Shown here piece after piece: positions 2,757 to 20,373 of a stretch of 64,000 bases of DNA; the first letter of the stretch is position 1; every line of letters begins with the position of its first letter. The stretch comes from Flectonema sp. DT1601 (Eukaryota), in contig OZ025801.1 in the NCBI GenBank assembly GCA_964019425.1, positions 806,001 to 870,000 on the forward strand, given 5' to 3'. Below the pieces are notes generated by a model. The model made no database searches and was not told the DNA's origin. It saw nothing but the letters and a program-made list of their open reading frames with translations. A program made the position numbers and the translations under genes.

Positions 2757-4325
2757 ATGACACAACGGGACAATTCAGAAAATGATCCCCCAGACTTTAC
2801 AAGTGAGGTGTTTACAAAGCACCAGATTCTTGCGTTGATGGCGGAGAATGGTGAATTCTACTTGGGGAGGGTCAAGTCTGTCAAAAAAGATGAATTGGAG
2901 TGGTACAACACAAAAGACAATAAAAAATATTTTTTATGCGGAATGGAAGACAAGATAGACAGACGATGTGTGTTGGACTGCAATGTCCAGTTAACTGAAA
3001 AATCTTACTTACCTGAAGCAGAGCGAGTGAGGCTCCAAGAAATAAGAACATCATACCTTTCCGGTGATGAATCGCAACGGGCTCACAAGGAAAAAAAGCA
3101 AAAGCGGAGTAAACACACAAAGCAGACAGACAAGAAAGCGAAAAAAACTGTCAGTTCAACTAGCAGTAGTTCCTCACACTGCATAAACCAACAGCAGAAG
3201 AAACAGAAAAGTACGTCTTCCTCGAGCCCCTTGAAAAAACGCAAGGTGGAGAGTGAGTTTTCACATGAAATTCCAAACGAAGAGCCAAGTAATGCCTCTC
3301 AAAAGGGCATGACCAACAAAATAGCATCTGAACCCGAGCTGATGAAAAAACAGCAACAAGAAGAACATGATACATTGGCTGCTGAAGCAAAAAGTTTAAC
3401 ACCATCATTGGGAAATCAGGTCAGTGTGACACGTGATTCCACAAACGAAGAAGTGCAAGCAAGTGTTTTGAGTTCGATTGGAATCACAAAAGTCGGAACT
3501 GAAGAGGCTGTGAAACCCCAACAAGGAGAACCTGAAACGGGGGCAGGGGAGCAGGAATTAGGAAAAAGGGAGGAATGTGCTACTGTTCACACACCTGAGA
3601 AGCCCGAGGCATCCTCGTCTTCCTCATCTTCTGTGGGAATAACTAAGGCAGAAAAAAGAATGGAGGCTGCGAAGAAGTTGTGGGCTGCTTCTCAGGAACT
3701 AAAAAAACCTAAGGAAGTGAAAAACCCACCGATGCCGACGCAACCAAACAGGTCTGCAAGAAAGAGAATAGTAATTCACAATCTTACAGAAGACAATATC
3801 AGAATGTTGCTGCGAAAGGGGGGAGTCAACCAAGGTAAAGCTGGGCAACTAAAAAATTACATTTCAACACAAAGAAGGCTGCTTAAGGAAAGCTCACCTG
3901 ATCCAGTTCCTGATACATGTGGAAAGTTTCCAACTCTTTCTGTTGATAGGGGATATATTACTTCCGAATGTGGCACGTTCCAAGATATTTTAAATGGAAA
4001 TGGAAAGCTTATGGATCATCATCGGCAGCAGGCCAAGAAAGCTGTTGAGGAGTATCGTAAAAAAGTACCTCAACCGAAAGCCACAAACAGTGGGGTTTGT
4101 CAGTTTGGAACAACACCTTTCAAAATTGCAACATCTCGTTATGCAATTCAAGCAGACACTGAAACGAGGGCTTCTGGTGTTTTGGCTCGTCGTCGAGCAA
4201 CCCTCAGAACCTCAACAGTCAGTGTTCTTGCTGTCTTTGCAATTGCGTCTCGTCAGAATGAAGAAAGTGTTTGCAGTCAAAGCACACCACTATTTAGTTC
4301 CTGCGTGCCATCCTCTGCAGTTTAG
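2757..4325 (+). CDS. Hypothetical protein with a small N-terminal beta-rich (possibly Tudor/SH3-like) domain followed by low-complexity K/S/E-rich sequence
   Basis: First ATG at 2757 follows a pyrimidine tract and AG (TTTTATTCTTTCAG, ends 2734). N-terminal pattern ILALMAENGEFYLGRV..ELEWY. The domain call is weak. Confidence 0.6.
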   Translation: MTQRDNSENDPPDFTSEVFTKHQILALMAENGEFYLGRVKSVKKDELEWYNTKDNKKYFLCGMEDKIDRRCVLDCNVQLTEKSYLPEAERVRLQEIRTSYLSGDESQRAHKEKKQKRSKHTKQTDKKAKKTVSSTSSSSSHCINQQQKKQKSTSSSSPLKKRKVESEFSHEIPNEEPSNASQKGMTNKIASEPELMKKQQQEEHDTLAAEAKSLTPSLGNQVSVTRDSTNEEVQASVLSSIGITKVGTEEAVKPQQGEPETGAGEQELGKREECATVHTPEKPEASSSSSSSVGITKAEKRMEAAKKLWAASQELKKPKEVKNPPMPTQPNRSARKRIVIHNLTEDNIRMLLRKGGVNQGKAGQLKNYISTQRRLLKESSPDPVPDTCGKFPTLSVDRGYITSECGTFQDILNGNGKLMDHHRQQAKKAVEEYRKKVPQPKATNSGVCQFGTTPFKIATSRYAIQADTETRASGVLARRRATLRTSTVSVLAVFAIASRQNEESVCSQSTPLFSSCVPSSAV

Positions 4326-4413
4326 CAGACATTGTCATGTTATCTTATTTTCTTTGAATCACAATAAATTTTTCATTCATACATCCTCACTTATTTCCAG
4401 TCCAACGAATAAG

Positions 4414-4418
4414 AAAAA
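4414..4418 (-). terminator. Pol III oligo-T terminator of the tRNA-Gly gene
   Basis: Plus-strand AAAAA reads TTTTT on the minus strand, 2 nt after the discriminator base. Confidence 0.65.
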
Positions 4419-4420
4419 TA

Positions 4421-4491
4421 TGCGTAAACCGAGAATCGAACTCGGGCCGACCCCGTGGCGGGGGGCCATTCTACCACTAGACCATTTACGC
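4421..4491 (-). tRNA. tRNA-Gly(GCC), with atypical C33
   Basis: Reverse complement GCGTAAATGGTCTAGTGGTAGAATGGCCCCCCGCCACGGGGTCGGCCCGAGTTCGATTCTCGGTTTACGCA folds as a cloverleaf: 7-bp acceptor GCGTAAA/TTTACGC, A box TGGTCTAGTGG, B box GTTCGATTC, anticodon GCC. A T5 run follows on the minus strand. Confidence 0.92.
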
Positions 4492-4500
4492 TCCAAAAAT

Positions 4501-4626
4501 CTACAGTTTCTGTACTTTATTGTTTCTGTACTTTATTGTGTGTGATTTACAAAAAAAAAAAAGCTACAGTTTCTGTACTTTATTGTTTCTGTACTTTATT
4601 GTGTGTGATTTACAAAAAAAAAAAAA
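4501..4626 (+). repeat. Two 63-bp tandem units, each = SL 3' end + AG-truncated SL relic + TGTGTGATTTAC + A12-13
   Basis: CTACAGTTTCTGTACTTTATTG at 4501-4522 and AAAAGCTACAGTTTCTGTACTTTATTG at 4559-4585. Each is followed by TTTCTGTACTTTATTG (4523-4538, 4586-4601). These match the conserved 3' half of the euglenozoan 39-nt spliced leader. Confidence 0.9.
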
Positions 4627-4632
4627 CTAAAA

Positions 4633-5997
4633 ATGTCCGGAACACAAGAATCGATGGTCGTGCAGCAACAAGAGCAAGCACAGCAATCAATGATGCAACA
4701 GCAGCAAGCACAGCAATTAATGGCACAGCAACAGCAGGCACAACACTTAATGATGCAACAACAGCAGCCGCAACAGCCAACACAAAGCCAGCCGGTACAA
4801 CAACAAGCGCAGAACAATTCCAACAATTGCTTTTTACATGGCAACTGGACGCTTGAGACTTTAAGTCAGTCGCAAACTCACCTTCCCAACAATGTCCCAC
4901 CAATCTCCCCCTTTTCGTTTATGAGCTCACCAATGATAGCGTTTAAACAGTATCTCAGAATAACAAATCTGTATTTTAAAACAATAAACATTTTAAGTTT
5001 AAAAGAAATGCACTTCACAGTTTCAAAAGACAATGTTGTAAACGTTTTTTCTTGTTTATTGGAAATCAAAAAAGAATGTGCAGCTGATTTCTTAGAAATA
5101 TCCGGCCAACACGGCATTTTCTTTTCCGAACACAAAAGCACTCAACACCTCTCCTCCTACTACACAATTGTGTGGACCCCTGACACACCTTACACCCAGC
5201 TTAAAAAGATAGCAATCGATCTCAATAAAGACCCAAAAAACAAAGGAGCCCTCGGGCTCACAATGTACCAAGGAAGAAGCCTTGGGATACGAATTAAAAA
5301 AGAATCAGAAACAAACTTTCGTTCAAATTTTGGAGTAAAATGTCCGACTTATTTCGAGATAAGCGGCATAAGCAAAGAGAACGCAACGTCATTTGACGTT
5401 GAATTTTTTTTTGATTTAATGAAAAAAAAAATTAAATACTGTTATAAAAAAAAAAGGGAAGAGTCACATGTTGTGAGCTCGTACGAGAATCTGCAGTCTT
5501 GCGGATCAGTAATCGTTAAAAAAATAACTCAACCCTCAAAAGATGAAAGAAGAATTGAAAAGAACTCAATAGAAACGAAAACAGACCAAACTGAAAAAAA
5601 AGATATTAACGAAAAAGGAAAAGGAAAAGGAAAAGGGAAAGGGAAAAAAGGAAAGAAAGGAACTAAGGGAGAGAGCGGTAAAGGAAAAAAAACTGTTTTG
5701 TCATCACCGTCAACCTCAGTAACCCCGTCAATAGAACAAACGGACATTTTAAACCAGCTAAAATTATTGTTAGATGCACAAACAAAGCATCTAACAACAA
5801 AGATCATTGGCACTTTTCTAGCCGATGATCCGAAAAAGCAAGCAGAAGCTTGGGATGCGGAAATAAACCCGCAAGAAAAAGAAGGTTTTCTACAAGGATC
5901 GATGGACGATGACATCGATCTTGTGAAACAGAAGCTGGACAAAGAAAACGATGGTGATGACAACACAAAAAGAAAAAAAGAAGAACCTCCGAATTGA
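4633..5997 (+). CDS. Retrotransposon ORF1 (Gln-rich N-terminus, central globular region, KG-rich basic tract); likely nucleic-acid chaperone
   Basis: 454-aa ORF directly upstream of, and overlapping, the endonuclease frame. Contains KGKGKGKGKGKKG. No CCHC knuckle visible. Confidence 0.8.
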   Translation: MSGTQESMVVQQQEQAQQSMMQQQQAQQLMAQQQQAQHLMMQQQQPQQPTQSQPVQQQAQNNSNNCFLHGNWTLETLSQSQTHLPNNVPPISPFSFMSSPMIAFKQYLRITNLYFKTINILSLKEMHFTVSKDNVVNVFSCLLEIKKECAADFLEISGQHGIFFSEHKSTQHLSSYYTIVWTPDTPYTQLKKIAIDLNKDPKNKGALGLTMYQGRSLGIRIKKESETNFRSNFGVKCPTYFEISGISKENATSFDVEFFFDLMKKKIKYCYKKKREESHVVSSYENLQSCGSVIVKKITQPSKDERRIEKNSIETKTDQTEKKDINEKGKGKGKGKGKKGKKGTKGESGKGKKTVLSSPSTSVTPSIEQTDILNQLKLLLDAQTKHLTTKIIGTFLADDPKKQAEAWDAEINPQEKEGFLQGSMDDDIDLVKQKLDKENDGDDNTKRKKEEPPN

Positions 5998-8900
5998 CTG
6001 TTTCCTTATAATTTATATCTTTTTTTATTTCTCGAACCTTCTTTTGTGTGGAGACATCCACCCGAACCCCGGTCCACAAAAAAAGCAAAAAAACAGTGAG
6101 CTGAGAATTGTATCTTTTAATGTTTGTGGTCTCAAGTCGAAATCCGACGAAATAACTTTTTTTTTACAAAATATAAAACCTGACCTATTCATGGTTCAGG
6201 AAACATTGTTAAAGGATAACGACGAAACCATTAATTTTAATGGGTACAAGTGTCTCAGAAGAGACCGGAGAATTCCGGTAAAAAAAAACGCACCCGTCAG
6301 AGGTGGTGGATTGGCAATTTTTTACAAAAACAGCCTAAGCGTGACAGCATTCGCTGTTGCACAACACAGCCAAGACTGCACTGAAGTCCAGGGCATTTTT
6401 GTGTCAAATTCAAAACAAACTGTAAGGGTATACAACGTGTACAGACCACCGGTAAGCCAATCAACCTCTGATAGGTCCCCCTCTTTTGATATGAATAGTA
6501 TTTTTCTTTTTAATAAAAATGATAAAGTAGTTATCGCGGGGGATCTTAACGCAAGGCATCCACTCTGGGACCCGAGAGACGAGTCAAACACAAATGGCCA
6601 TGAAGTCTCGACTTTTCTAAACAATAACCAGTTTGAATGCTGCAACGTTAAGGAAATCCCCACAAGACCAAAATCAAACACTTCTCCTGATGTTGTTCTC
6701 CAAAAAAACTGTGATATTGGCAACTGGACGACGCTCGAATCTCTATCAAGCGATCATGTACCAATGTATTTTTCTCTTTCTTTTTTTTCGGATTCGATAA
6801 ACAGAGCGAACGGTGCAACGGTTTTTTCTTATAATTGGAACAGGGCACTGTGGCCAAACTACAGCTCCCACCTCGAAAGGGTGGCGAAGCGACTTGAAAA
6901 GATTCAAGATAACCAGAAATTATCAATGGAATTCATAAAAGAATTAAAAAATGCGTTACGGATCTTTGTACCAAGGATTTATTTGAAAGGAAAGTCACCA
7001 AAGAAGTGGTGGAACACGACGGTTGCATCTAAGTTTCATGAGTTCAACGAGTCACATTGTGACCAACGGGATGATCTTACAGATCTGTCGCAACAGGGAA
7101 AGTCAATTTTTACATCTTTAAAAAAAGAACTCAAAAAAACAGTCGTTGATGCCAAGAATCAACAGTTTAAAAAAAGCCTTTAAAAAGACAAGTCTATTAT
7201 TGAAGCTTTTGAAGACATAAGAGGCCTTGATGGAAGATCAAGACTTAAAGAAATTCGAGAAATCACCTGTGGTGATAAACTTGTTACAGATGATGTGGAA
7301 AAAGCATCAATTTTCAATAATCAATTTTTACAACGTGTTGGTAACATCAAAGAAAAAACAAAGACAAAGAAAATAGAAACAGACCCTTCTGATTTTACAC
7401 CATTTACACAACATGAACTTAGAATCCAATTGAGAGGAATGGCTCTGGAAAAGAATTCACCAGATGGCGTTCAAGGTATTCTTCTTAACCATTTGGGACC
7501 TAGAATGCTAAACATTTTACTTAAGATTTTTAACAATTCGTGGAAACATTCTGTTGTCCCGAGTGATTGGAAAGACACACACTGGATCCCTGTTTTAAAA
7601 AAAGGAAAACCCCCAAACCTCCCCTCTTCATATAGAATGATCTCTCTCACCCCTTTTATTGCGAAATTGATGGAAAGAATGGTGAAGGAACGTCTTACGT
7701 ATTTTATGCAATCACCGAATGAAAAGAAAACTGACGGTATTGGTTTCAACCAAACTTCTTATCGGAAAACGCGTTCTTGCCGGGAAAACATCCTATATGT
7801 TACGGACAGACTTAGATTTCTTAAACACCAAAAAAAGTCAGCGGCCCTTGTTCTTCTTGATATCGAAAAAGCTTTTGATAGTGTGAACCATGATCTTCTC
7901 CTTCAAAGGATGGTAGATCTTGGAATACCAAAACATTTTATAGCCTGGATTCAGGCCTTTCTTAAAAAACGAAGAGCAGCGGTTGTTGTTAATAATGAAA
8001 AAGGTTCTTACCACAATGTTTATTCTGGCGTTCCACAAGGAACAGTTTTGTCGGCTCTACTTTTTACTCTGTATATTGAAAAAGTCGCAGAAAGACTAGA
8101 TATTACGGTTGCTAAGTATGCGGATGATATTGCTTTTGTAGTTGATGATGAAGGGAAAGGTTTTACTTATCATTTGGCAAAAACGAAATATTTCTTTAAT
8201 GAGATTGAAAAGGATCTAAACGAATTAAAATTAAAAGTAAGTTATGAGCCTGACAAAACAAAACTTGTGTATTATCCCTACTCCCCAAATTCCCCACTAC
8301 AAACACCTTTCACTTTTACTTCAAATTTAACAAAAAATATTGTTCCATGTGTTGATAGCGCCAAGCTTCTTGGGGTGATCCTTGATAACAAGCTCGATTG
8401 GAAACAGCATATCTCGTATATTTGTAGAAGAGTTAATCTTCGCTTAAGGTATCTGAAGCTTGTCGCATCAAAAGCATGGGGACAGTGTACTGCAACTTTG
8501 CGTGAGGTGTATGATTTGTATATTCGACCTGTCATAACAAACTCGTGTGAAGCTTTTTATCCTGAAGTTAGGTATAAAAAGATTCACATGGACAGGCTTC
8601 TCTCTTTACACCTTAGGGGTGCGTGCTATGTCTTAGGTGCCTTACCACCAACAAGGGAAACAAGAGATAAGATCTTTTTTGAGGCACAACAACAAAGTAT
8701 CAACACCCATTTGAGACTTGAAACTGGTAGATGGTTCGCCAAAATGGCGCGAATCACGTCCCCTTTATTAAATGTCTTTATTCCACCTGAAAGAATATCC
8801 TCAACACCCATTGATTCTTTTACTCGTTTAGGAATGAATGTTCTGAAAGAACACAACCTTCTATCACTCAGTTTTGAGAAATATCCCATTTACGTTCATC

Positions 8901-9943
8901 CTCCATGGAGTTTTTCAAATGATTTCAATGTTTTTAAACCAGAAATGCATGTTAGAAAAAAAAAAGACAAAAAGAAAAATAAAAAAGCCTGTGAAGCTGT
9001 TCTTAATGAAATAAGGAAAGATTATGAACCAGTCTTAGAGGTATATACCGATGGTGCCGTTGTTGAAGAACGCGGTGCTGCGGGTGTGTACATCATAGAC
9101 AGCGAAGGAAATGAATTTCTCACAAACAAAAGTGAAGCAGGAATAATCTGCACCTCTTTTAGGGCTGAAATGATGGCGATCAAAAACGCTTTTGTTTTAC
9201 TTTTTAAGGAATTTAAACCGCCGGAAAATGCGTCAGTTTTATTTGTGTCAGACTCCTCCAGTGCCTTGATGGAACTGGAAAAAGGGGGAACAAAACAGAA
9301 AACGAGACTAGGAAGCCGCATCTGGCAGTTTATTGAATTTTTCAACAATAAATTCAAAACAAAGTTTATTTTCCAGCATGTCTTTTCTCACTGTGGTATT
9401 GTCGGAAACGAAGAAGCAGACAAACTAGCCCAAAACATTTCATTAAAAAAAGATGAAGAAACCCTTTTAAAACAAAAAAAAGTTCCCATAGACTACAGCA
9501 CCCATGTAGCTAAACTAAAACACAGAATAAAAGAAAAATTTGACCCCCGTCCTTTCCCATCTGAAACTGAAAGAGCGGAAGAAATTCTGATTTCACAACT
9601 CAGAATTGGCGACTGTAAACAAACACAAGGGAAATGTCCTAGGTGCAGAGAAAAAGACTCTGTAGAGCACCTGTTAGCAAAATGCTCAAAGTACAGAAAA
9701 GAGAGGAGGATGTATCTCCAGAAAGACTCTCTAACACAAGAAGAGTTAAAGGATTGTCTTTCCACTGTACAAGGACTAGAGAATGTTTTTCTTTTTATGT
9801 CATCTGCAAGAAGATATGTTTTTCCAGAAAAAGAAAAGAAAAAAGAAAATTTGAGTCAGGAAACAAAGAAAGAAAATGAAGAAAACGTTATCCTTCAACC
9901 CACACTTTTCAATACTGTGATTCAAAACTCACAACTGACTTGA
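5951..9943 (+). pseudogene. Retrotransposon ORF2 (2A-like peptide, APE endonuclease, RT, RNase H, zinc finger) interrupted by one in-frame TAA at 7181-7183
   Basis: Track ORFs 5951..7183 and 7295..9943 are in the same frame, and 7184-7294 is open. Motifs: SFNVCG, VQET, GGGLAI, NVYRPP, AGDLNA, SDH (APE); LLDIEKAFDSV, GVPQG, YADD (RT); YTDG, RAE, SDS, SHCGIVGNEEADKLA (RNase H); CPRC..SVEHLLAKC. Confidence 0.9.
6038..6076 (+). other. 2A-like (StopGo) ribosomal skipping motif LLLCGDIHPNPG|P
   Basis: Matches the (G)D(V/I)ExNPGP consensus except His for Glu, and lies immediately N-terminal to the APE domain. Confidence 0.7.
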
Positions 9944-10711
9944 TTTCTCAAGCTTCCAAATTAACCAAAGTAGCACCTACACCATGGGGATGGTCTGATT
10001 GTTGATTGACTGATGGGCCGATATAGATTGGACACAGATCGAGAGTTTTTGAGAGATCTTAGATGAAAGTCCGCACCTTTCAGGCCATCCCCAAAAAGCA
10101 CATAGCAGCTACAGCTATGTCAATTCAAATTGCGACGAGCTGCAACTTCGACATGAAGTTTTTCGTTATTGTTCTTACCTTCTCCACATATTTACATATG
10201 TGATAAGTATAAGTCATATCTTACGATTGACAATTCCTCCCCATAAATAAATTTCTTTTTATTATTTTATTTTACACCTGCCTTACTAACTTGGGGAGAA
10301 AGAAAGGATGAACAATGGGCCTCTTATGAGGTGGGCAATTGCCCTGGACCCACATTAAATGTACGCGTGTTTTGCGTCAGCCCGTTGCTGTAGAAAAAGA
10401 AGAGACAGTTTCAGGTAGTAATGAAAAAAAAAAAAAAAAAAAAAAATAAAACCGGGTTTTTCTTAATTTCTCCTTTGTTTCCTTTCCTTGGAAAAATACA
10501 AAAAAAACTCTAATCAAGACATTTTCCCTTTTTTTCCTGTTAGTCTCCTTCCGGACTTGGCTTGCCCTCCTGAAGTCCGTAGTTATGAACATGAGTTCAT
10601 GTTTCTTTATAGCACCTCGCAAATTATATTCGTCCTTTCTACATATCAGCTTCGCGTGTATTTTGTGTTTCTCATATTGCTTTTCCATCTTGCAGGCTGG
10701 GAGGCCAAACT

Positions 10712-13700
10712 ATGAAATTCCCATTCCTGTTCACATTCATTTTCTTGGCTGTGAATGGGAATGTGGTTATACCAAAGCAATCTGGTTGGTATCGAGGCAG
10801 GGCATGCACATTTTATGAGTTTGAAGATGTGGAGTTGAATCCCACTGCTGAACCACCTGTAATGTATTCAATAGTAAGAGAGGATGAATGGGGTGATAAA
10901 GTTCGTATATTAGGGCAGGATGACATTATTGATAGAGGGAACACTACTAATTACACTGGTGTGTGGAAACACATGTATGTAATCACAGAAATACCACCCA
11001 CGACTATGTATTCCAGCAGTTCGGTGTTGTTGGCAGCCGCGCAACAAGAGGGTTGGAGTGTTGTGGCATCAGGGAGCTTCTTGTACTGTCCATTAGTCGC
11101 AGCTGATGTCTCGGTGGAGGACGGGGCCCTTCAAAAAAAGAGGATCTTACTCGAAGGAAACACTGTGTACTGTATCAACGCTGGAACACTGTTACAATAC
11201 CCGTCAACTAACTCGATAACATGGCAGCTGCGTAAGCTGCCGACAAGTACCGAGGTCGTAGGAAACGCGTTGTTTGATATCCGCCCTAGCGAATCCGGTT
11301 TTACGCCTTTGTTTATAAGAAATATAGCTCACGTCCCCCCCACATATCAAGATCAAAGTGTGAAATCATTCAATCAGCTGAGTACTATATCGTATCAAGA
11401 ATCAAGTTCTAATATTATTAAATCTATTTATTTACAAGTATCTGACCCTTGGTGGCAACAGCGCTCTCAATGGGCTCATCAACTGACACTTAATTCAGAA
11501 CAAGGAATTGATTTATACTACAGCGTGTTACCGACATTAGATTTTATTCGGGTACGTATTGAAACTCGTTTTGGGTCAGGATACATTGCAATCGGTTTTG
11601 GAGGAAGTGACACTACTAGTGATGATGGTGAATTTGTAGTTGCTTACCTTACGCGTCAGAGAGTTGTGTGTGTTACTTATTTATATCGTAGGAATAATGT
11701 CTTTATCGCATCTCCTGATAATGACAACCTACTCGGAGTTACAGACCTCACGGTTGAGACTACTGCTGCTGGTAGGATTGTTGTTGTTTTTACGAGAAAA
11801 GTTACAGGAGTGACAATCGATTCACAAGGGACATCACGACCACAAACAAGTATTATTCTAAATAGGTTTAATAAAGTATTTTGGGGAGTACGTTCTGGTA
11901 GTCCTCTTTCCCAATGTACAACATCTGTTACTGACTTAATAGAGCACGTGTCTGCGCCTAGGGTTTGGGGTGTTGGTCAAGTCTGGTGGACGTCTTCGTC
12001 AGTCATTCCTGCAGTAACAAATCAACCTATCACTGCACCACCACCAGGATTGATTACACCTTCTCCATTACTTTCTCGTGCAACAAATTCACCACCGTCA
12101 GTTCCTTCTGATAGAATAGCAGGGTCTGTTGACTTCGATTCAAAACTATCTTTATCATGGCGAGCTCTGGAATCATCCGTTGAGTTTACATTAAAATATA
12201 AAGGAAATCTTCGAAATGAGAATAAATGGGTGGGTATTGGATTTGGAGGTCAATTCACAGTAGCTGACATAATAACTACCTGGGTTACGGAAAATGGTGA
12301 GGTCGTTGTTGAAGATAGAAAAGGTCTACCTCAGTACCTACCTCCACCACTTGATCCCCAGCAGGATGTAACACTTATTGCTCAAGATAGTTCAATAAAT
12401 AATGATTTGTCGACGATTGTATTCGTTCGACAGTTAGATACTGGTGATGATAGAGTTACATTTCAAAGTCCTAATAGAACGGAATTAGTTGGAGTAATTC
12501 TTCAAAAACAATCAGGTTGGTTTCAAGGTCAACGTGTTGATTATTATGACTTACCGACGTCAACATCTGATTCAGTGTTAGGAGTGATTTATTTATTTCT
12601 AAGAGCAAACGGAAGTTCAATTCCGGGTCAGCTACCTCTAGTGGATAGCGTTCCTGGGCAGTCATCTTATTCATCAGTGAGATCAGTCACTCAGGTTACT
12701 GTACCAACATCGTATGTTGGACCAACTTTTACTTGGATTCACACAATACCTGAAGATTGGCTTTCTACAACTACTACCATAATAAACTGTCCTGTTGTGC
12801 ATGCGAATACCCGTTTGCAGACTACAGCTGATTCGATGAGATTTATCTTAACTGAGCTTCTTTATAGAGGTGAGAGTGAATATTGTATAAACTTTACACA
12901 AACAGAACTAGCAGTGGGAACAACCCTATCAACTCTTAGCTATCCGAGAGTGTTTAATACCATTACGAGTCCAGTTGAGGGTACCATTTGGTCAACAGAC
13001 AATACGACGAGCTCAACTGCTGTTGATATTGGAATGTACAGACAAGTGTTATGGAATGAGTCTCAGTACACAAACATTGTTGTATCATCTGTAACTAGGT
13101 ATGATCAATTACCAGAAGCTGTAAGAGGAATCACTTCAGTTGATGGTGTTCAACCAATTGTCAATAGGTTTATAACTAATGTACATCCTCCAGCAGCACT
13201 TCCTGATACTCCTGTTCCAACTGAGGTCAGTACACATAACAATCAAATGATTCTAAATAACGCAACTGGTCAGATTGTTGTACTCAGATGGACTATTGAT
13301 GACTCTGCTGGTGTTATTCACATAGAAGTTGAATCTGATGTAGTCAGAACTGATCAACATTTTGGATATGTTTCAATTGGTATGTATTTATGTGTTGATC
13401 CTGTCAGTCATGAAGATTCTGAAGTTTTTCAACAAGTTCTTCGTCAAGTTAATCAAGTACAGTGAGTCAGTCGCTCAGTATTGGTGTTGGCAAACCTTAC
13501 AACTTTGGGGCTTCTCCTCCAATATGGAAATATCTTATAAAAAAAAAAAAAAACAGGATTCAGTGGTGTCGAGTACACGATGATGTCCCACACAGATATA
13601 GTTGTTGGGTATCTCGATAATGGAGTCTCATGTGTTCAGGTACTTCGATCAGATAGTACTCAAGGAGCTCCGTCAGGAACTCCAACACTAACAGTGAGTA

Positions 13701-16700
13701 ACACAAGAGTTGAATTTGTGAATAATAGATTAAAAATGTCATTCACAAGAGGTCTTCAAAGTAATGCCAGCATCGAAGGCCACATCCCAGTAGACACACT
13801 AAAAGCATCGCGAATATTATACGCTACTAGTAATAATAAAGTACCTGATGGAATATGTGGGACACCAACACTAAGTCAGTCAGTTGATCATCACAGTAAT
13901 CCTCATGGGGATAGAGTTATTTATTGGAGATTGTTAGACGGGTCGTCGGTTCGTGTCGGAGTTCCCTCGACGGTTCCTTCATCAGGATTACCATTTCGAC
14001 TTGATGTACCCATTACGTACTCTCTTCAAACTGGTTACTTTACTGGAAGTGAAGTTGAATACTATATTATTGATAATAACCTTCAAGGAACTGATACATC
14101 TGTTCAGTATCAATATGTTTATGATATTTGGTGGCCAGAAAATAGATTCGCAATAGTAGATGTAGTCCCAGGACTTCCGGGTTACAGTGATTTGATGAAA
14201 GTTAAAAGGGTGAGAGTTGATAACTTCCCGGGTAATATAACATCTCTTCAACAACTTAATAGTATAGCTACTGTTTTTATGGAGGACACAGATGAGTATT
14301 GGAATTGTCCAGTTGTTTCAAGTGAAGCGACATTCGAAACCTCGACCACGACACCGACTCAACCAACGCTTAGAGATCTGTGGTATAAAGATCAATTACT
14401 GAAATGTGCATATTTCGGAAAAAGTTCAGGAGTAGGTGTGAACTCAATTTATGAAGTTTGGAGGAGAAGTAGTGTCAGTGGTTCTCTCAACACCGTTAGA
14501 GATTCACAGAATATTTCGGTCTTAACAACAGTTCCGACTTCACTCAGTTACAGTAGTTTTAATTGGCTTCAGATTACTGTTGTTGCGGAATCAGCAACAA
14601 CCGTGTTTTCACACCCTGATTTGATATCCGTCAGCATTGCAACATACACACCGTCTCCACCTAAGATCATAAACACGCCAATAACGTATGTTGATGCTGG
14701 TTCTCCTACTACTCTAACGCCTCAAGTAATTCCAATAAATCAAGGGTATCTAGCTAATCGTATTGTGTACTATGCAGATTTCGGAAGATCTCCAACAGTT
14801 TTGGGTTCGCTGTTAACTTCAGAGATGCTTGTTTTTCGTAGGCAAAGCGACGCATCGTATTGGTCAACAGAACTTCAAAATAACATCGTTTCACATGTTC
14901 CAGGTATGACAGAGTATTCAGGATTGTGGGAGATTATTATAATAAATGTTCCAGACGATCAGACGACAGCAGGAAAGATGATAACCAACATTACAAGTGC
15001 TGGCTTGATACCATCAGAATGGACAAGAACAACTACTAACATACTAATTGACTGTCCTATTACACATAAAGACACTATACTCGGTGATTATCCAGATTCT
15101 GGTGCAGCAGCAGGTTTTCAACAGTTAGAATTATACTATGAGAGTGGTACCTCTTATTGTATGTTTGTGAATCAGAATTTGAGATCAGCTGCTGACGAAC
15201 CTGTCGTCGAACAGGTTTACGTGTCCAGTACCAACTCTAATCCAGTTTTTACAAGTTGGCCTGGAAATTCACCATCACATGTTGTCCCTCAGAACTACCT
15301 CGGTGTTGCTGGAGTCACGCATACGTCAGCTGCAGCTGTAACCGAGTTTACTACAACTTTTACCGTGTCGTTGTTTGCTTATAATTGGCCAATTGTTGCT
15401 GTTAAAGAAAACACCGTCGCTAGTGAAAATCGTGTTCACATGACTGCAGTTGAGCAGCAAGGATTTTATAAGGGAAAATCAGTTGGCTATTGGCCGATAA
15501 CAAACTCTACTTCAAAACTTGTACCGAAGACACTTCAGAATATACGAATTGTGAGAAGTGATGAGACTACGAGAGTTGAGTCAGAAGCTGTGGCAACATC
15601 TGGTGTTTACATATTCCGATATGGAGGTGTGTTGTTAGGTCAGATTGACCCTGTTTTTGAAAGTGTTCCATCCTCTCTCCGAATAAGAAACAGTGACTGG
15701 ACTGGATACAGTGACTTGAAACACGTTAATGTTGTCGACATTCCTGTGACTGACACTATTTCACAAACTACTTCTGTTTCTGAAATATTCGCAAAAGTCG
15801 TATCAAGCGGATGGAGAATCACAACACTAAATAACATTTATTACAACTACCCAATCTGTACCAGAGATTCTGTCCCACCTCCTGGAGGGAGTGGTTCATC
15901 ATCTGGTGTTGTAAGTCAGGGTTGGTATGATAGCAATCCAATCCATTTTATGAATATAAATGAACAAGGAAATAATATCATAGCAAAGGCTTACCTTGTT
16001 GACTCTGGTAAGATAGTATTTCCTAAACTACCTGAAGATCCAGCTTACACAGCATTTCATACTGTTTGGAGAGTGCCTGGTGCTTCTGATACCTTTGATC
16101 CTGATAGAGATTTAGGTGGAGCTTTAGATGCGTATCCAGTTTCTGGTGATGTTCATAATTTTCCAATATTATTAGCACCGTCTGCGTCAAGACAAGAAAA
16201 TGAAGTTGATTTACAAAAAGTTTATGAACCACAAACTGGATGGTCTAACGGCAATAGAGTAACTTACTACAAGTTCTACAACACCCCATCTGCTATACCT
16301 ACTGGTGAAGTGAATGTTAGATCCATGAAGAGATATGTTCTTAGATACGGTTCTTCATACACATCTGAAGAAGCTCAGTCTAGTAGTATCATGGCGAGGA
16401 ATCCAGGTCAAGATGGATATTCTGACTTGAGTGAAATTATAGTAGTAAATGTAGACACTGGTGAGAATGTTACATTCCCAATTCAGTCTGTTACAAATTT
16501 ATTATTAGCAATGGAGCAGCACTCATGGAGTGTGGTCTCTTCAGGTATTGATATGCTCATACCAGCAGTTCATATAAATTCACTTTTATCAGAAGAAAGT
16601 GATCGAATTTTATATCCAAAAGCTGTATCTTATAAAGATGGTAGAACCGTATCAGTTCTTGACTTCAGCAGGCTGTGGCAAGATAGGTCTGCAACTCTCC

Positions 16701-19700
16701 GCACTCCTCTCTCTGTTGCGAGAGTTATTAATTTAAGTTCGAAGGAATCTTTGATATTTAATACGGTAGACAGTTTTCCTGCTGCAAGGACATGTCAAGA
16801 AAAGATTTATATTGCGCAGACAACTGATCATCCAATAAAGGTTGTTAATCAATCATGGGAGAGTTGCACATCATTCACAACAGAAGCGACATGTCCAACT
16901 CAGTATGGATGTGTTTGGAGTACTTCGTGTGATGATCCTAATGTTGTGTATGGTTGTCCTATTTTATCTGTTAAAAGTAATTCAATAGAGAGTTTACCAT
17001 TGCTACAGTTAACGCGTTCATCAGGATGGTTTGATGGACGTCTTCTAATGTATTATGTAAGTCCTAATGCAGTGTCTGGAAACATAACAACTGCTATTAC
17101 AAACATTGTATACATCTTTGTGAGGTCTGATGGGTCGACTATTACTTCTATGCCTCCAGTGTTTGAACTGATGCCAACTTCAATGATGTATAGTGACATT
17201 CACGTTGAACATTTTATTACGATTCCAGACGGTTATACTTCTGGTGCTATTCGAAGTTCTGCTGATGCTGAGTTCGTAGTAACGTCAAAGAGTTGGAACA
17301 GAACGATAGGAACAGTCAACAGAAATTGGTGGCTAATCCATCCTGACACTAAAGTTGAAGATCGAGATTCAGGAGTTATCGGAAAGCACACCGCATACAG
17401 TGAAGGTTTACTGCTAAGGTATCTTGATTTTGGTGTCATCGGAACACTTGACCACACAGAGAAGTTTATGTTATTTGAAAACGGAAACTACATAACCAAC
17501 AATGACATATTTACAACAGCAGCTCTCTTCACAGCACCATCATCACCAGTCTATACAAGTTTAGTATGGGAAGTTTCAGTACTTGTTGAAGCAGGTTATA
17601 AAGCCAACACATACACATCAGTTAGACAATTAAGTGGAACAGCTGATTATGGAAGTAGGTCGCGTATTAGTAACAATCCAGTTATATCAATTAACGCTCC
17701 TATTAGTATGGATGCTGCTGATGATCTTCCCTTGTCTCTTGATGGTAGTGAGTCATTCTTATGGGCATATGGAGATATTAACACAGTCACAAAACAACTT
17801 GATAGATGTGTTGATCGACAGAGAGGTGCTGTTGCGCTTCAGTTGGTTCAGACAGGTGTGACTTTAGCGCCGATGAATGCGACAACAATGTCGAATGTGT
17901 GTACTGTGTTTAATGCTGACTTTGAGATGTGTTGGGAAATTAATATCCGACCTGGTACAACACCAGTCCTTGAGATGACTGCGAGTTTTATTATGAAAGT
18001 TTCAAAGTGGGTTTCTGTTGCAATCTCTAACTCACCTTCAATGGAGTATTCTGACGTGTGGTTGGGATACGCTGATTCCAGAACATCACAGATTCAAGAC
18101 AGATATAACGCTGCTGGGCACTCAGCTAACCCACCGTTTGACTTGTCATTTGGAGGTAGATCTAACTTAGAGTTAGTGGGAGCATTACCGAATACCTTTC
18201 ATGATAGATTTAATATAACCTTCAAGAGACTATTGGACACTTCAGATACTGTTTCAGACATTACTATTACTGATCGTGAGTTTTGGATATCTTGGGCTGT
18301 TGGACCTTGGAATGATGGCCCATTCGTCCACACTGACACCGGCATGTCAAAAATCAACTTCATAACAGGAACTGTCAACCATTCAGCTTCCAGTGATACC
18401 CTTGACACTTGGTGGGTTACTTTTACTATTCTGACTTTTATCTTAACAATCTTCTCTGCTCTCTATCTTACTCGCTGTTCTTCAAAGAATCATATTTTAC
18501 ACGTTTCAGCTGCTTGTTGGGTATGTAAATCATTTTATTATTCGTTGAGAGTAGGTGGGTAATCCCAACACGTGTCGAATAAAAAATAAATAAACGGACA
18601 AAAACAGGGTTCTCCATGCTGCTACTTAACTCTAGCACAGGTTGCAATTATAGTAATTTATGTTTCTCTGCTTTCTGTTTGGATTATTATGTACGCAGAG
18701 CAGTACAGGAGGGTATGTGTTTATTTTATATAATTGGAATTACATTATCACTGTCACGACTATGACAAGAACCCAAACACAACCAACAGGCTAATTTAAA
18801 AGCACCAATTGTACGAGGTCTTGGAGCAGGTGCTCTACTGTGCTTCTCATTAGTTTTAATACCAGTTACGAGATCGAGCATAATACTTCGTTTCTTTGGG
18901 ATGACAAAAGAAAGAGCTTTGAAATGGCACAGATGGAATTCAACAGTTTTACTACTGTTGGTATTCAGTCACGGTTTTGGAATGGTAGTAACATATTCTA
19001 ACAAGGCAATCGGTTGGGAAAGTGGTGATGCGAATCGCCAACCTGGACTAGCTGGATTCATCTCCTTCATAGGACTCGTTCTACAAGCCATGCTCGTCAC
19101 TCGTTCTTGTTTTGGTAACGGACTCAAACGTCGTTATAATTGGAAAAAACTACACGCTGCGGTTGGTATTTGGACATTAGCTTGGGCAGTTATTCATCAC
19201 CCTCCACTAATCTGGGGTTTGTTATTTTCATTAATTGATGCGGCCACTGATGTAATGTACCAACTCTACGCCAACTATAAAGCAACTCGTAGAAGTGCTA
19301 TTTATTCTGCTCAAGAAGAGTCTTTTCTCAATGGTGACAAAGTTACGAGTGTTGAGGTTAAGGTTTTATCATCTGACCATGCATTTTGCTATGACAGTTT
19401 TTCATTATCTCGTTTATCACCATTGCAGTATGTTCAAGTTCGATTCCCTGCTGTGTCTGGAGCTTGGAAATCAATCTCGCTTAGCTCACGTCCTATTCAT
19501 ATTGAAGATGATCAATCTGGTCCTTTTAAAGGACTTCCAACAACAACATTCACAATTCATATTCATTCTCATGAGGCGGTGACACAGTCTTGGGCTTATG
19601 CTGCTCATCAATTGGTTGAAGCAAGAAAGTTGACGTCTATTCAGGTATTGGGACCTCATGGAAAACCATCTTTAGAGCTTCGTAATTACGAGCACGTCAT

Positions 19701-20373
19701 TCTTATTGGGGGTGGTCTGGGAGCAGCAAGTTTAGTTTCTGTTATTGAATACTATTTAGATGCGAAGTGGGGAAGACAACAACCAACAGGTCCAAGTAGA
19801 ACAAAACTAATAACTCTGATCTGGTCAGCAAAAGACAGAAGAATGTTTAATTTATTCTGCGGAGAAGATCGAGGAGCCATTAGAATGGCTCTTGATGTTG
19901 ACCACGACGGTCCGACAATGAATTTAAATTTTGTGTTTAGATTGTTTTTGCATGAGACTCATGGTAATGCGAACCCTCTCAGATCAACTGATAAACGCAA
20001 CGACATCTCAGATTTAAATGCACCGTCTACTTCAATGCCTGTAGACCAACTACAAGAACGAGTGGATGGTAAAGCTCAAGCTCTTGGTCTTGGTAGAATC
20101 CCACTAATCCATTCTGGACGACCTAATCTTTTTCAAGGTCGAAACGTATCAGATCACGTAAACGTTTTTGACGATTTAGCTGCTGAAAATGAAATGGGAA
20201 ATCGAGGACTTCGTGGGCTCAGTGGCAGAATCTCAAACGCTGCGGTAGTAGTATGCGGTCCAGAATCTATGAGGACAGACGTCCAGAGATCTATTCACAA
20301 TCATAATATTGTGTCAGGTGGTGGTTTAACCTTTCACCTACACACTGAAGATTGGAAAACAAACGCTCTGTAA
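10712..20373 (+). CDS. ~3,106-aa membrane protein: signal peptide, 7 extracellular repeat domains, 4 DOMON domains, ferric-reductase-like TM domain, FAD- and NAD(P)H-binding domains. Exons 10712-13379, 13557-18520, 18608-18712, 18790-20373
   Basis: Three GTATGT...ACAG introns join the track ORFs in frame; splicing restores the DOMON motif GYVSIGFSGVEYTMMSHTDIVVGY. FRD motifs PVTRSS..GMTKERALKWHRW, two His pairs, GPHG, LIGGGLG, VVCGPESM, LHTEDW. Confidence 0.85.

What the first reader, a model, noticed from the sequence alone, without database searches (positions are those of the whole stretch)
4501..4632. LINE 5' end built from spliced leaders plus AG-truncated SL relics: a retrotransposon that may carry its own trans-splice acceptor
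Seen: directly upstream of ORF1 are (AAAAG)CTACAGTTTCTGTACTTTATTG and then TTTCTGTACTTTATTG, twice. Known: this is the conserved 3' half of the euglenozoan SL exon. Leishmania ends CAGTTTCTGTACTTTATTG; the Diplonema SL as I recall it is AACCAACGATTTAAAAGCTACAGTTTCTGTACTTTATTG. The second copy in each unit begins exactly after the SL's internal AG (CTACAG|TTTCTG), the same signature as relic SLs on recycled dinoflagellate retrogenes. No GT donor follows, so this is not an SL RNA gene. Inference: element RNA was SL-trans-spliced and reverse transcribed into the leader; after re-transcription a new SL was spliced onto the AG inside the old one. The captured SL would regenerate a capped, translatable 5' end from polycistronic read-through at each cycle, replacing an internal promoter or the HDV-ribozyme 5' signature of trypanosomatid ingi/L1Tc. 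This differs from SLACS/CRE/CZAR/NeSL, which insert into SL genes using REL endonucleases. I am not aware of it being described for an APE-type LINE.
Basis: partly seen in the sequence, partly recalled or inferred. Interest (0 to 1): 0.9.

Follow-up and report, generated by a model that had tools for sequence, protein, structure and literature searches.

The report
Retrotransposon headed by recycled spliced leaders
A young retrotransposon in a likely diplonemid (marine flagellate) genome begins with pieces of the spliced leader that these cells attach to their mRNAs, one piece cut exactly at a splice signal inside the leader, which suggests that the element likely uses a captured leader as its own splice site in place of the promoter used by related trypanosome elements, and it sits right beside a tRNA gene that it may target.

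Summary
Observation confirmed. Window 4501-4632 holds two near-identical 63-bp units: spliced leader (SL) nt 18-39, a 16-nt relic (SL nt 24-39, starting right after the internal AG), 12 nt and an A-run. There is no donor or SL intron. It heads a two-ORF APE-RT-RNase H LINE bounded by a likely 6-bp target duplication and A23. The family is young (other copies 99.4-99.9% identical, ORF2 intact; this copy has one stop). The host is close to Flectonema. The same SL-relic junction heads an unrelated RLE-type element (L001), so re-splicing at the SL's own AG is the likely origin. Corrections: one relic records one re-splicing, whereas re-splicing at every cycle would add a relic each time. The second unit is probably an A-tract template slip, and it places U-rich sequence before two AGs (4562-63, missed, and 4568-69). 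No genome, RNA or other 5' ends were available, so family-wide use is untested. New variant; interest 0.65.

The parts
4421..4491 (-). tRNA-Gly(GCC) gene, head-to-head with the element, 9 nt from its first base; C at the position where U33 is usual
   Evidence: ARAGORN; Rfam RF00005 53.3 bits; 62 of 71 nt identical to the L018 tRNA-Gly
4495..4500 (+). Likely 5' copy of a 6-bp target-site duplication (AAAAAT); also imperfect microhomology to the SL A-tract
   Evidence: same hexamer at 10442-10447; empty site not seen
4501..4522 (+). Unit 1: SL nt 18-39, internal AG at 4505-4506
   Evidence: 22 of 22 identity to L018 SL exon
4523..4538 (+). Unit 1 relic: SL nt 24-39, starts right after the SL's AG22-23
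4539..4562 (+). 12-nt spacer and A12 (copy of the element 5' UTR)
4560..4585 (+). Unit 2: SL nt 14-39 (A-tract merged with the A12), AGs at 4562-4563 and 4568-4569
   Evidence: 26 of 26 identity to L018 SL exon
4586..4601 (+). Unit 2 relic: SL nt 24-39
4602..4632 (+). 31-nt A-rich 5' UTR, like the inferred host UTRs (IDH, alpha-tubulin)
4633..5997 (+). ORF1, 454 aa, Q-rich start, no Pfam family, no CCHC knuckle; relatives only in Flectonema and a sister family
5951..9943 (+). ORF2, 1330 codons, overlaps ORF1 by 47 nt; APE (about 6110-6766), RT (7598-8374), RNase H (9035-9436), C-terminal Cys/His motif (9635-9685); one in-frame TAA at 7181-7183
   Evidence: 6 of 6 other listed cluster members that cover the site have Lys
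6038..6076 (+). 2A-like motif at the ORF2 start, non-consensus (His where the consensus has Glu); same motif in Flectonema P0003
   Evidence: consensus as given in PMC5814959
9944..10423 (+). Inferred 3' UTR
   Evidence: between ORF2 stop and the A-tail
10424..10447 (+). A23 tail and likely 3' copy of the target duplication (10442-10447)

Best explanation
This is the 5' end of a young LINE, made of spliced-leader pieces that were likely copied from the element's own trans-spliced RNA, and the AG inside the captured leader likely served at least once, and would serve again, as the element's splice acceptor in place of a promoter. Shown: SL identity and boundaries, no donor, LINE anatomy, sense orientation in an all-plus gene run, a tRNA gene 9 nt away. 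Inferred history: (1) element RNA was trans-spliced and reverse transcribed, which lost the original acceptor and left SL + UTR in DNA; (2) read-through of such a copy received a new SL at CAG (SL nt 21-23), giving SL + relic + UTR, and this RNA was retrotransposed; (3) during or before this insertion the cDNA slipped from the SL A-tract to the UTR A13, doubling the unit (unit 2 keeps G17, unit 1 has the target's T, so the doubling is not a later slip at this site); (4) the 5' end joined the target by A-tract microhomology, losing SL nt 1-17. The doubling puts U-rich relic sequence in front of the AGs at 4562-63 and 4568-69, so the copy would carry a host-like acceptor of its own. Insertion was likely primed on a T5 nick 3 nt upstream of the tRNA, probably by targeting. 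Because relics have no AG, repeated re-splicing would lengthen the relic array; a family dominated by one master copy would show mostly one relic.
For: Exact SL match and AG/exon-end boundaries; 2 of 781 placements fit by chance. The only hit of the 38-mer in the metagenome collection is the same junction, with different flanks, at the head of an RLE-type retroelement (L001). Donor-less SLs in other retroelement contigs start at nt 5, 5, 5, 6 and 8 (L020, L021b, L022, L021a, L001), as expected if RT stalls at the cap-4 nucleotides (block at nt 1-4 recalled); L021 also has a tandem SL + 10 nt leader. 17 of 19 host ORFs have a CAG within 120 nt of the ATG, one in the same CTACAG hexamer; T fraction 50 nt upstream: host median 0.40, AG 4569 0.42 (94th percentile of 1042 CAGs), AG 4563 0.46 after 55 AG-free nt. 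21 of 21 ORFs of 300 aa or more are on the plus strand. No RNA family but the tRNA in the window, leader fold z -0.18. No SL relic before any host gene in the window. Sister-family ORF1 P0356 has a 10-residue extension ending in seven Lys, compatible with a 30-nt A-rich UTR (weak).
Against: Only one 5' end was read. One relic per unit does not show use at every cycle. AG 4506 has a poor upstream context here (T fraction 0.22, 25th percentile). Host acceptors were inferred from sequence, not from transcripts. This copy has a stop in ORF2 and may be a dead end. L001 belongs to a class that inserts into SL genes, so its SL could come from the target. L020's SL does not sit at a clear element start. 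Trypanosomatid ingi/L1Tc RNAs are unspliced (PMC1874656), and no SL core lay on the contigs of three bodonid-type APE-like RT matches.
Confidence: 0.5

Rival explanations
1. Dead-end accident: the family has an ordinary promoter or ribozyme 5' end; one lineage of copies was trans-spliced at a UTR AG, lost that end and was re-spliced once more, giving this fossil. The junctions arise as in the best explanation but are not the family's strategy.
For: One copy seen, with a stop codon; one relic only; nearly all diplonemid mRNAs are trans-spliced (PMC10161547 section 9), so stray splicing of read-through RNA is expected; SL exons merged to transposable elements occur sporadically in Schistosoma.
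Against: Needs at least two successive successful retrotranspositions of spliced RNA; this copy's ORF1 is identical to that on 2 further contigs, so its lineage is close to the main one; the UTR looks like a host mRNA UTR.
Confidence: 0.25
2. Cis-encoded SL mimic: transcription starts at or near the captured SL (helped by the neighbouring tRNA gene) and most RNAs are not spliced, so the relic number stays at one.
For: Explains why relics have not piled up; virus-collection contigs carry whole 39-nt SLs without donor 26-27 nt behind an A-rich motif, so encoded SLs exist; TRE5-A promoter activity rises next to a tRNA gene (PMC5911963).
Against: SL nt 1-17 are missing in unit 1, so the RNA would lack the cap-4 end; a T4 run 331 nt into the element would likely stop Pol III (termination rule recalled); the relic itself needs one splicing event.
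Confidence: 0.1
3. The leader is not part of the LINE: it is left by SL-targeting CRE/SLACS activity, by short SL-headed SINEs stacked at the same tRNA target, or by a decayed SL gene next to a tRNA.
For: A(n)-G-SL3' is also the junction between tandem RLE-type elements (L019); L018 shows an SL gene inside a tRNA cluster; SLACS-type proteins are abundant in D. papillatum.
Against: No target duplication follows either A-run; the one candidate duplication brackets leader plus LINE; the LINE would have a 6-nt UTR; no SL intron in the window; the A-run resembles host UTRs.
Confidence: 0.1
4. The 16-nt and 63-nt repeats are DNA slippage or assembly artefacts on a single captured SL.
For: Short tandem repeats next to homopolymers are error-prone; many cluster members are broken at A-runs; no reads were available.
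Against: Both relic boundaries coincide with splice boundaries (2 of 781) and recur in L001; G versus T at the unit starts is not a copy of local DNA.
Confidence: 0.05

Closest known systems
Dinoflagellate SL relics on recycled retrogenes (review PMC6050394, passages)
   Same: A retroposed SL followed by a shortened copy, read as repeated rounds of trans-splicing and retroposition.
   Different: There host genes carry the relics and an LTR element is the proposed helper; here the autonomous LINE itself carries them, in a euglenozoan, and host genes in the window do not.
Trypanosomatid INGI clade: ingi, L1Tc (PMC5814959, PMC1874656, PMC12278014, passages)
   Same: APE, RT, RNase H, poly(A) tail, 2A-like motif before the enzymes, host with polycistronic transcription.
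   Different: One ORF, Pr77 promoter/HDV-like ribozyme and unspliced RNA there; here two overlapping ORFs, an SL-derived 5' end, a non-consensus 2A, and a separate branch in a quick RT tree.
CRE/SLACS/CZAR (PMC12278014, PMC5814959, passages)
   Same: SL exon sequence at element junctions; RLE-type elements fetched here show SL heads, a tandem SL leader and the same relic (L001, L021, L022).
   Different: RLE endonuclease and insertion between SL nt 11 and 12 of SL genes there; APE endonuclease and a tRNA-flanking site here.
Dictyostelium purpureum NLTR-A and D. discoideum TRE5 (PMC5006619, PMC5911963, passages)
   Same: NLTR-A: overlapping ORFs, APE-RT-RNase H, 2-6 bp upstream of tRNA genes. 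TRE5: opposite orientation upstream of tRNA genes, modular 5' UTR.
   Different: No SL; specificity shown on 16 (NLTR-A) and 98 (TRE5-A) copies, here on one copy plus one weak case; homology not tested.
SL exons merged to transposable elements in Schistosoma mansoni (PMC5832876, passages)
   Same: Genomic SL exon inside retroelements, proposed to come from trans-spliced, reverse-transcribed RNA.
   Different: Six loci, possible misassembly conceded; the passages seen give no relic and no acceptor role.

Membership tests
SL RNA gene | 39-nt exon followed by GT donor and SL intron | tested here: not met
   no GT after any piece; no intron match over 14 nt to L018
SL relic of the recycled-retrogene type | shortened SL that starts after an internal AG and ends at the SL 3' end, behind a longer SL piece (AG rule recalled; concept) | tested here: met
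SL relic of the recycled-retrogene type | transcripts with a new SL spliced onto the old one | not testable with these tools
   no sequencing run listed
SL relic of the recycled-retrogene type | several relics marking several rounds | tested here: not met
   one relic per unit in this copy; other copies not readable
Trypanosomatid INGI clade | APE + RT + RNase H, poly(A) tail | tested here: met
Trypanosomatid INGI clade | single ORF | tested here: not met
   ORF1 454 aa and ORF2 overlap by 47 nt; ORF1 conserved across copies
Trypanosomatid INGI clade | Pr77 promoter / HDV-like ribozyme at the 5' end | tested here: not met
   5' end is SL-derived up to the ATG; Rfam blank; fold z -0.18; no direct alignment to Pr77 was made
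Trypanosomatid INGI clade | 2A consensus DxExNPGP before the enzymes | tested here: not met
   motif present with His at the Glu position
Trypanosomatid INGI clade | RT groups with ingi/L1Tc | tested here: inconclusive
   quick tree only: diplonemid clade support 100, outside the group with Leptomonas P0182 and bodonid-type rows; no named ingi or L1Tc in the set
CRE/SLACS/CZAR | restriction-like endonuclease | tested here: not met
   APE found; RT branches apart from the RLE-type rows
CRE/SLACS/CZAR | insertion between nt 11 and 12 of an SL RNA gene | tested here: not met
   flanks are a tRNA gene and intergenic DNA
tRNA-targeted non-LTR elements (NLTR-A/TRE5 type) | insertion just upstream of a tRNA gene, opposite orientation | tested here: met
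   this copy: target duplication 3 nt, element 9 nt from tRNA +1
tRNA-targeted non-LTR elements (NLTR-A/TRE5 type) | same position in many copies | tested here: inconclusive
   P0132 flank compatible with an antisense tRNA, about 1% background, poor anticodon stem
tRNA-targeted non-LTR elements (NLTR-A/TRE5 type) | homology to NLTR-A; dependence on Pol III factors | not tested
   no NLTR-A sequence fetched

The most novel reading that the evidence does not exclude
Diplonemids harbour a promoterless LINE lineage that lives on host read-through: it homes to tRNA gene starts inside polycistronic units and uses a captured spliced leader as a portable splice acceptor, so that trans-splicing rebuilds rather than destroys its 5' end and the number of relics counts the generations of each copy.
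Probability: 0.35. Interest if true: 0.85.

Novelty: new variant of a known kind. Interest (0 to 1): 0.65.

Why it matters
In organisms that trans-splice nearly all mRNA, a LINE loses everything upstream of its acceptor at each cycle; trypanosome ingi/L1Tc avoid this by staying unspliced behind an internal promoter and ribozyme (PMC1874656). An APE-type LINE that instead re-uses the SL's own AG would be the opposite solution. It would extend SL recycling from dinoflagellate retrogenes to an autonomous euglenozoan element, give a built-in generation counter (relic number) for retrotransposition, and make a sharp test of what a minimal trans-splice acceptor needs. tRNA-proximal insertion would add a euglenozoan case to a habit described in yeasts and social amoebae. 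Ten literature searches listed no paper on an SL-headed APE-type LINE in euglenozoans; the library lacks most subscription papers and Repbase.

Tried and rejected
No whole genome is held and no sequencing run was listed (no evidence either way), so other 5' ends and SL addition sites could not be read. The SL + relic 26-mer gave 0 hits in viral contigs and 0 in genome contigs. No ORF2 relative in viral contigs (68 pattern matches, none confirmed). Reading other copies' leaders through spurious proteins failed: the 142-codon open frame across tRNA and leader gave 0 hits among 903 candidates, and the 183-aa ORF 3994-4545 is not in the collection; I treat both as non-genes. ORF1: no Pfam family, no usable Atlas hit. 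Rfam matches in the leader other than the tRNA are far below their cut-offs. Earlier findings of the scan: nothing returned. Rejected: SL RNA gene (no donor); A12/A13 as poly(A) tails of SINEs (no duplication after them, host UTRs are similar); a local DNA slip for the 63-bp doubling (G versus T); Pol III as the full-length transcriptase (T4 run at +331). The pyrimidine tract before ORF2 (AG at 6053, T fraction 0.60) could be an internal acceptor but codes for the hydrophobic run before the 2A-like motif, and the next ATG is out of frame; left open. The careful tree did not finish and L022 was dropped for lack of an RT hit. The capsid search on virus-like records was blank, also in its controls. 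PMC12621601 and PMC11613528 (passages) gave nothing on SL-headed elements. The D. papillatum supplements searched (7 files) had no hit for 'spliced leader', so its Additional file 1 on repeats and structural RNAs was probably not among them and may bear on novelty.

Full report
Observation. The leader is as described. The 16-mer occurs four times in the 64-kb window, all within 4507-4601, against 0.16 expected. It forms two 63-bp units: SL nt 18-39, a relic (nt 24-39), 12 nt and A12 or A13, with a G at 4563 between them and 31 nt from the last relic to the ORF1 ATG. SL numbering rests on fetched sequence: a scan of genome contigs returned SL RNA genes with GT donors lying in mixed bins (L011, L018, L024). 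The exon of L018 is identical to 4560-4585 (26 of 26) and 4501-4522 (22 of 22), and its intron has no match over 14 nt in the window. The published SL 'Euglenozoa 14' matches 4559-4585 (PMC3795323, one passage, species not given). This SL has two internal AGs, nt 16-17 and 22-23. The relic starts right after the second; unit 1 starts right after the first. The host's own SL was not observed.

Host and element. The window's isocitrate dehydrogenase is 94.9% identical to a Flectonema neradi protein, and 21 of 21 ORFs of 300 aa or more lie on the plus strand, as in diplonemid polycistronic clusters, where essentially all mRNAs are SL-spliced (PMC10161547, section 9 read). Behind the leader lie ORF1 (454 aa, no Pfam family) and ORF2 (APE, RT, RNase H), overlapping by 47 nt, with one in-frame TAA at 7181, then about 480 nt and A23. 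AAAAAT stands at 4495-4500 and 10442-10447, a likely target duplication that brackets leader and LINE and would give a T5 primer for the A-tail (inference). The ORF2 cluster has 18 members; the 15 listed lie on contigs of 9 different lengths; 6 of 6 other members that cover the stop have Lys, and three long unbroken ones are 99.4-99.9% identical. The exact ORF1 is on 3 contigs. In a quick RT tree of 59 rows these form a clade (support 100) outside the group that holds Leptomonas P0182 and bodonid-type rows; no named ingi or L1Tc was in the set and the careful search did not finish.

Is the relic a splice product? Of 781 possible duplication placements only 2 start after an AG and end at the SL end. 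The 38-mer has one hit in the metagenome collection, L001, where SL nt 8-39 and the same relic, with different flanks, precede a long RT ORF with a UCH domain and a PD..D motif, no APE found. That class inserts into SL genes (PMC12278014, PMC5814959, passages), so it is independent but not a clean control. Other donor-less SLs in retroelement-bearing contigs begin at nt 5 (L020, L021 second, L022) or 6 (L021 first), which fits RT stalling at the methylated cap-4 bases (block recalled). L021 carries a tandem SL + 10-nt leader before its ORF; L019 shows A11-G-SL3' between tandem elements; L020's SL is not at a clear element start. So euglenozoan retroelements likely do copy SL-capped RNA, and re-splicing at the SL's CAG is the simplest source of the relic.

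Would it work as an acceptor? 17 of 19 host ORFs have a CAG within 120 nt of the ATG; one has the same CTACAG; their putative UTRs are short and often A-rich, those of IDH and alpha-tubulin much like the element's 31 nt. T fraction in the 50 nt upstream: host median 0.40; AG 4506 0.22 (25th percentile of 1042 CAGs); AG 4569 0.42 (94th); AG 4563 0.46, first AG after 55 AG-free nt. The first unit thus supplies a U-rich tract to the second. These acceptors are inferred from DNA alone. Unit 2 keeps the SL's G17 where unit 1 has the target's T, so the doubling came with or before the insertion, probably by a cDNA slip between the SL A-tract and the UTR A13.

A relic has no AG, so each re-splicing adds 16 nt and splicing cannot remove them. 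One relic per unit records one re-splicing followed by a successful retrotransposition, not use at each cycle. Either one master copy with a bare SL piece produced most copies, or relic number varies among copies, or this lineage is a side branch. This could not be decided: no genome, no run listed, and a protein search with the open frame across the leader found nothing. One weak hint: sister-family ORF1 P0356 has a 10-residue extension ending in seven Lys, compatible with a 30-nt A-rich UTR. Against generality: no SL core lay on the contigs of the three bodonid-type RT matches, and L1Tc and ingi RNAs are unspliced (PMC1874656, passages).

What it missed. A tRNA-Gly gene (4421-4491, minus) lies head-to-head, 3 nt from the target duplication and 9 nt from the element. 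D. purpureum NLTR-A (APE-RT-RNase H, overlapping ORFs) inserts 2-6 bp upstream of tRNAs and TRE5 about 50 bp upstream in opposite orientation (PMC5006619, PMC5911963, passages). A second copy, P0132, is cut in ORF2 and has 29 foreign N-terminal residues that are compatible with tRNA A and B boxes in antisense only; so are 23 of 2360 protein 29-mers, 63 of 4376 translated window stretches and 305 of 2627 shuffles. Its full score of 38 beat 153 of 153 ORF2 29-mers and 149 of 150 shuffles, but the anticodon stem fits badly. The tRNA would end 17-20 nt from the element. Suggestive only.

Comparison. It works like dinoflagellate SL recycling (PMC6050394, passages) placed on an autonomous LINE. It is not an SL gene, not CRE/SLACS, and fails the single-ORF, Pr77 and 2A-consensus tests for trypanosomatid ingi. 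SL exons merged to six transposable elements were noted in Schistosoma as possible trans-spliced retrocopies or misassemblies (PMC5832876, passages). Ten searches listed no paper on an SL-headed APE-type LINE in euglenozoans; other papers in those lists were seen as listings only, and Additional file 1 of PMC10161547 was probably not among the supplements searched.

Verdict. Real feature. SL origin about 0.97, relic by re-splicing about 0.8, leader part of the LINE about 0.85, normal 5' end of the family about 0.55-0.6, tRNA targeting about 0.65 (my estimates). New variant of a known kind; interest 0.65, 0.85 if the family-wide, promoterless reading holds.

Noticed in passing
L057-L059, L061, L062, L064, L066-L068, L070, L071, L074, L075 (match near 1501), L078-L080; ten sites in IMGVR_UViG_3300046534_001516: Virus-collection contigs (two named GVMAG) and two AT-rich contigs in bins carry whole or nearly whole 39-nt euglenozoan SLs with no donor, mostly just before ORFs. 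Of 20 distinct sites (4 duplicate loci dropped) 17 are SL-like, 0 have GT, 12 have an AAAA(A/T)TGAA-type motif, 11 of them 26-27 nt upstream; background 112 of 3000. It resembles the mimivirus early promoter (recalled). Likely giant viruses of euglenozoans that encode the host leader in cis. The BsV paper passages do not mention this; one search listed nothing on it. Viral class not confirmed (blank). Possibly more striking than the finding itself.
   Followed up: partly
L001 62-107; L021 2989-3076; L022 11-53; L019 2988-3021; L020 about 3001-3037 (minus): RLE-type (CRE/SLACS-like) elements outside SL arrays with SL heads starting at nt 5-8, a tandem SL leader, an SL + relic, and an A11-SL3' junction followed by an ORF with a 2A-like motif. 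L020 and L021 sit next to tyrosine-recombinase-like sequence (motif recalled).
   Followed up: partly
L018 21-2578: Compact cluster of an SL RNA gene with about ten tRNAs, 5S, U5, U6 and SRP RNA genes in a contig of a bacterial bin; likely euglenozoan contamination, with an SL gene just downstream of tRNA-Trp.
   Followed up: partly
L011-L017, L024-L025: SL-5S tandem arrays (786-bp and about 400-1000-bp spacing) inside prokaryote bins: kinetoplastid-type contamination of these genome records.
   Followed up: no
window 4421-4491: The tRNA-Gly has C in place of the usual U before the anticodon, while most other differences from the L018 tRNA-Gly keep the stems paired; possibly impaired.
   Followed up: no
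window 5998-6053: Strong pyrimidine tract with 68 AG-free nt ending at an AG just inside ORF2, before the 2A-like motif: possible internal acceptor for an ORF2-only RNA.
   Followed up: partly
outside the window, same reported contig length 95,082: A second, truncated and frameshifted copy (P0132 + P0123) and a sister-family ORF1 (P0353) are recorded on a contig of the same length as the window's neighbouring genes: local clustering of insertions.
   Followed up: partly
window 10712-20373: Three consecutive ORFs with DOMON domains and a ferric-reductase-type end, probably one very large intron-split surface oxidoreductase gene.
   Followed up: no
window 61622-62880 and 63873-64000: 60-bp and 30-bp in-frame-length tandem repeats, not examined.
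   Followed up: no
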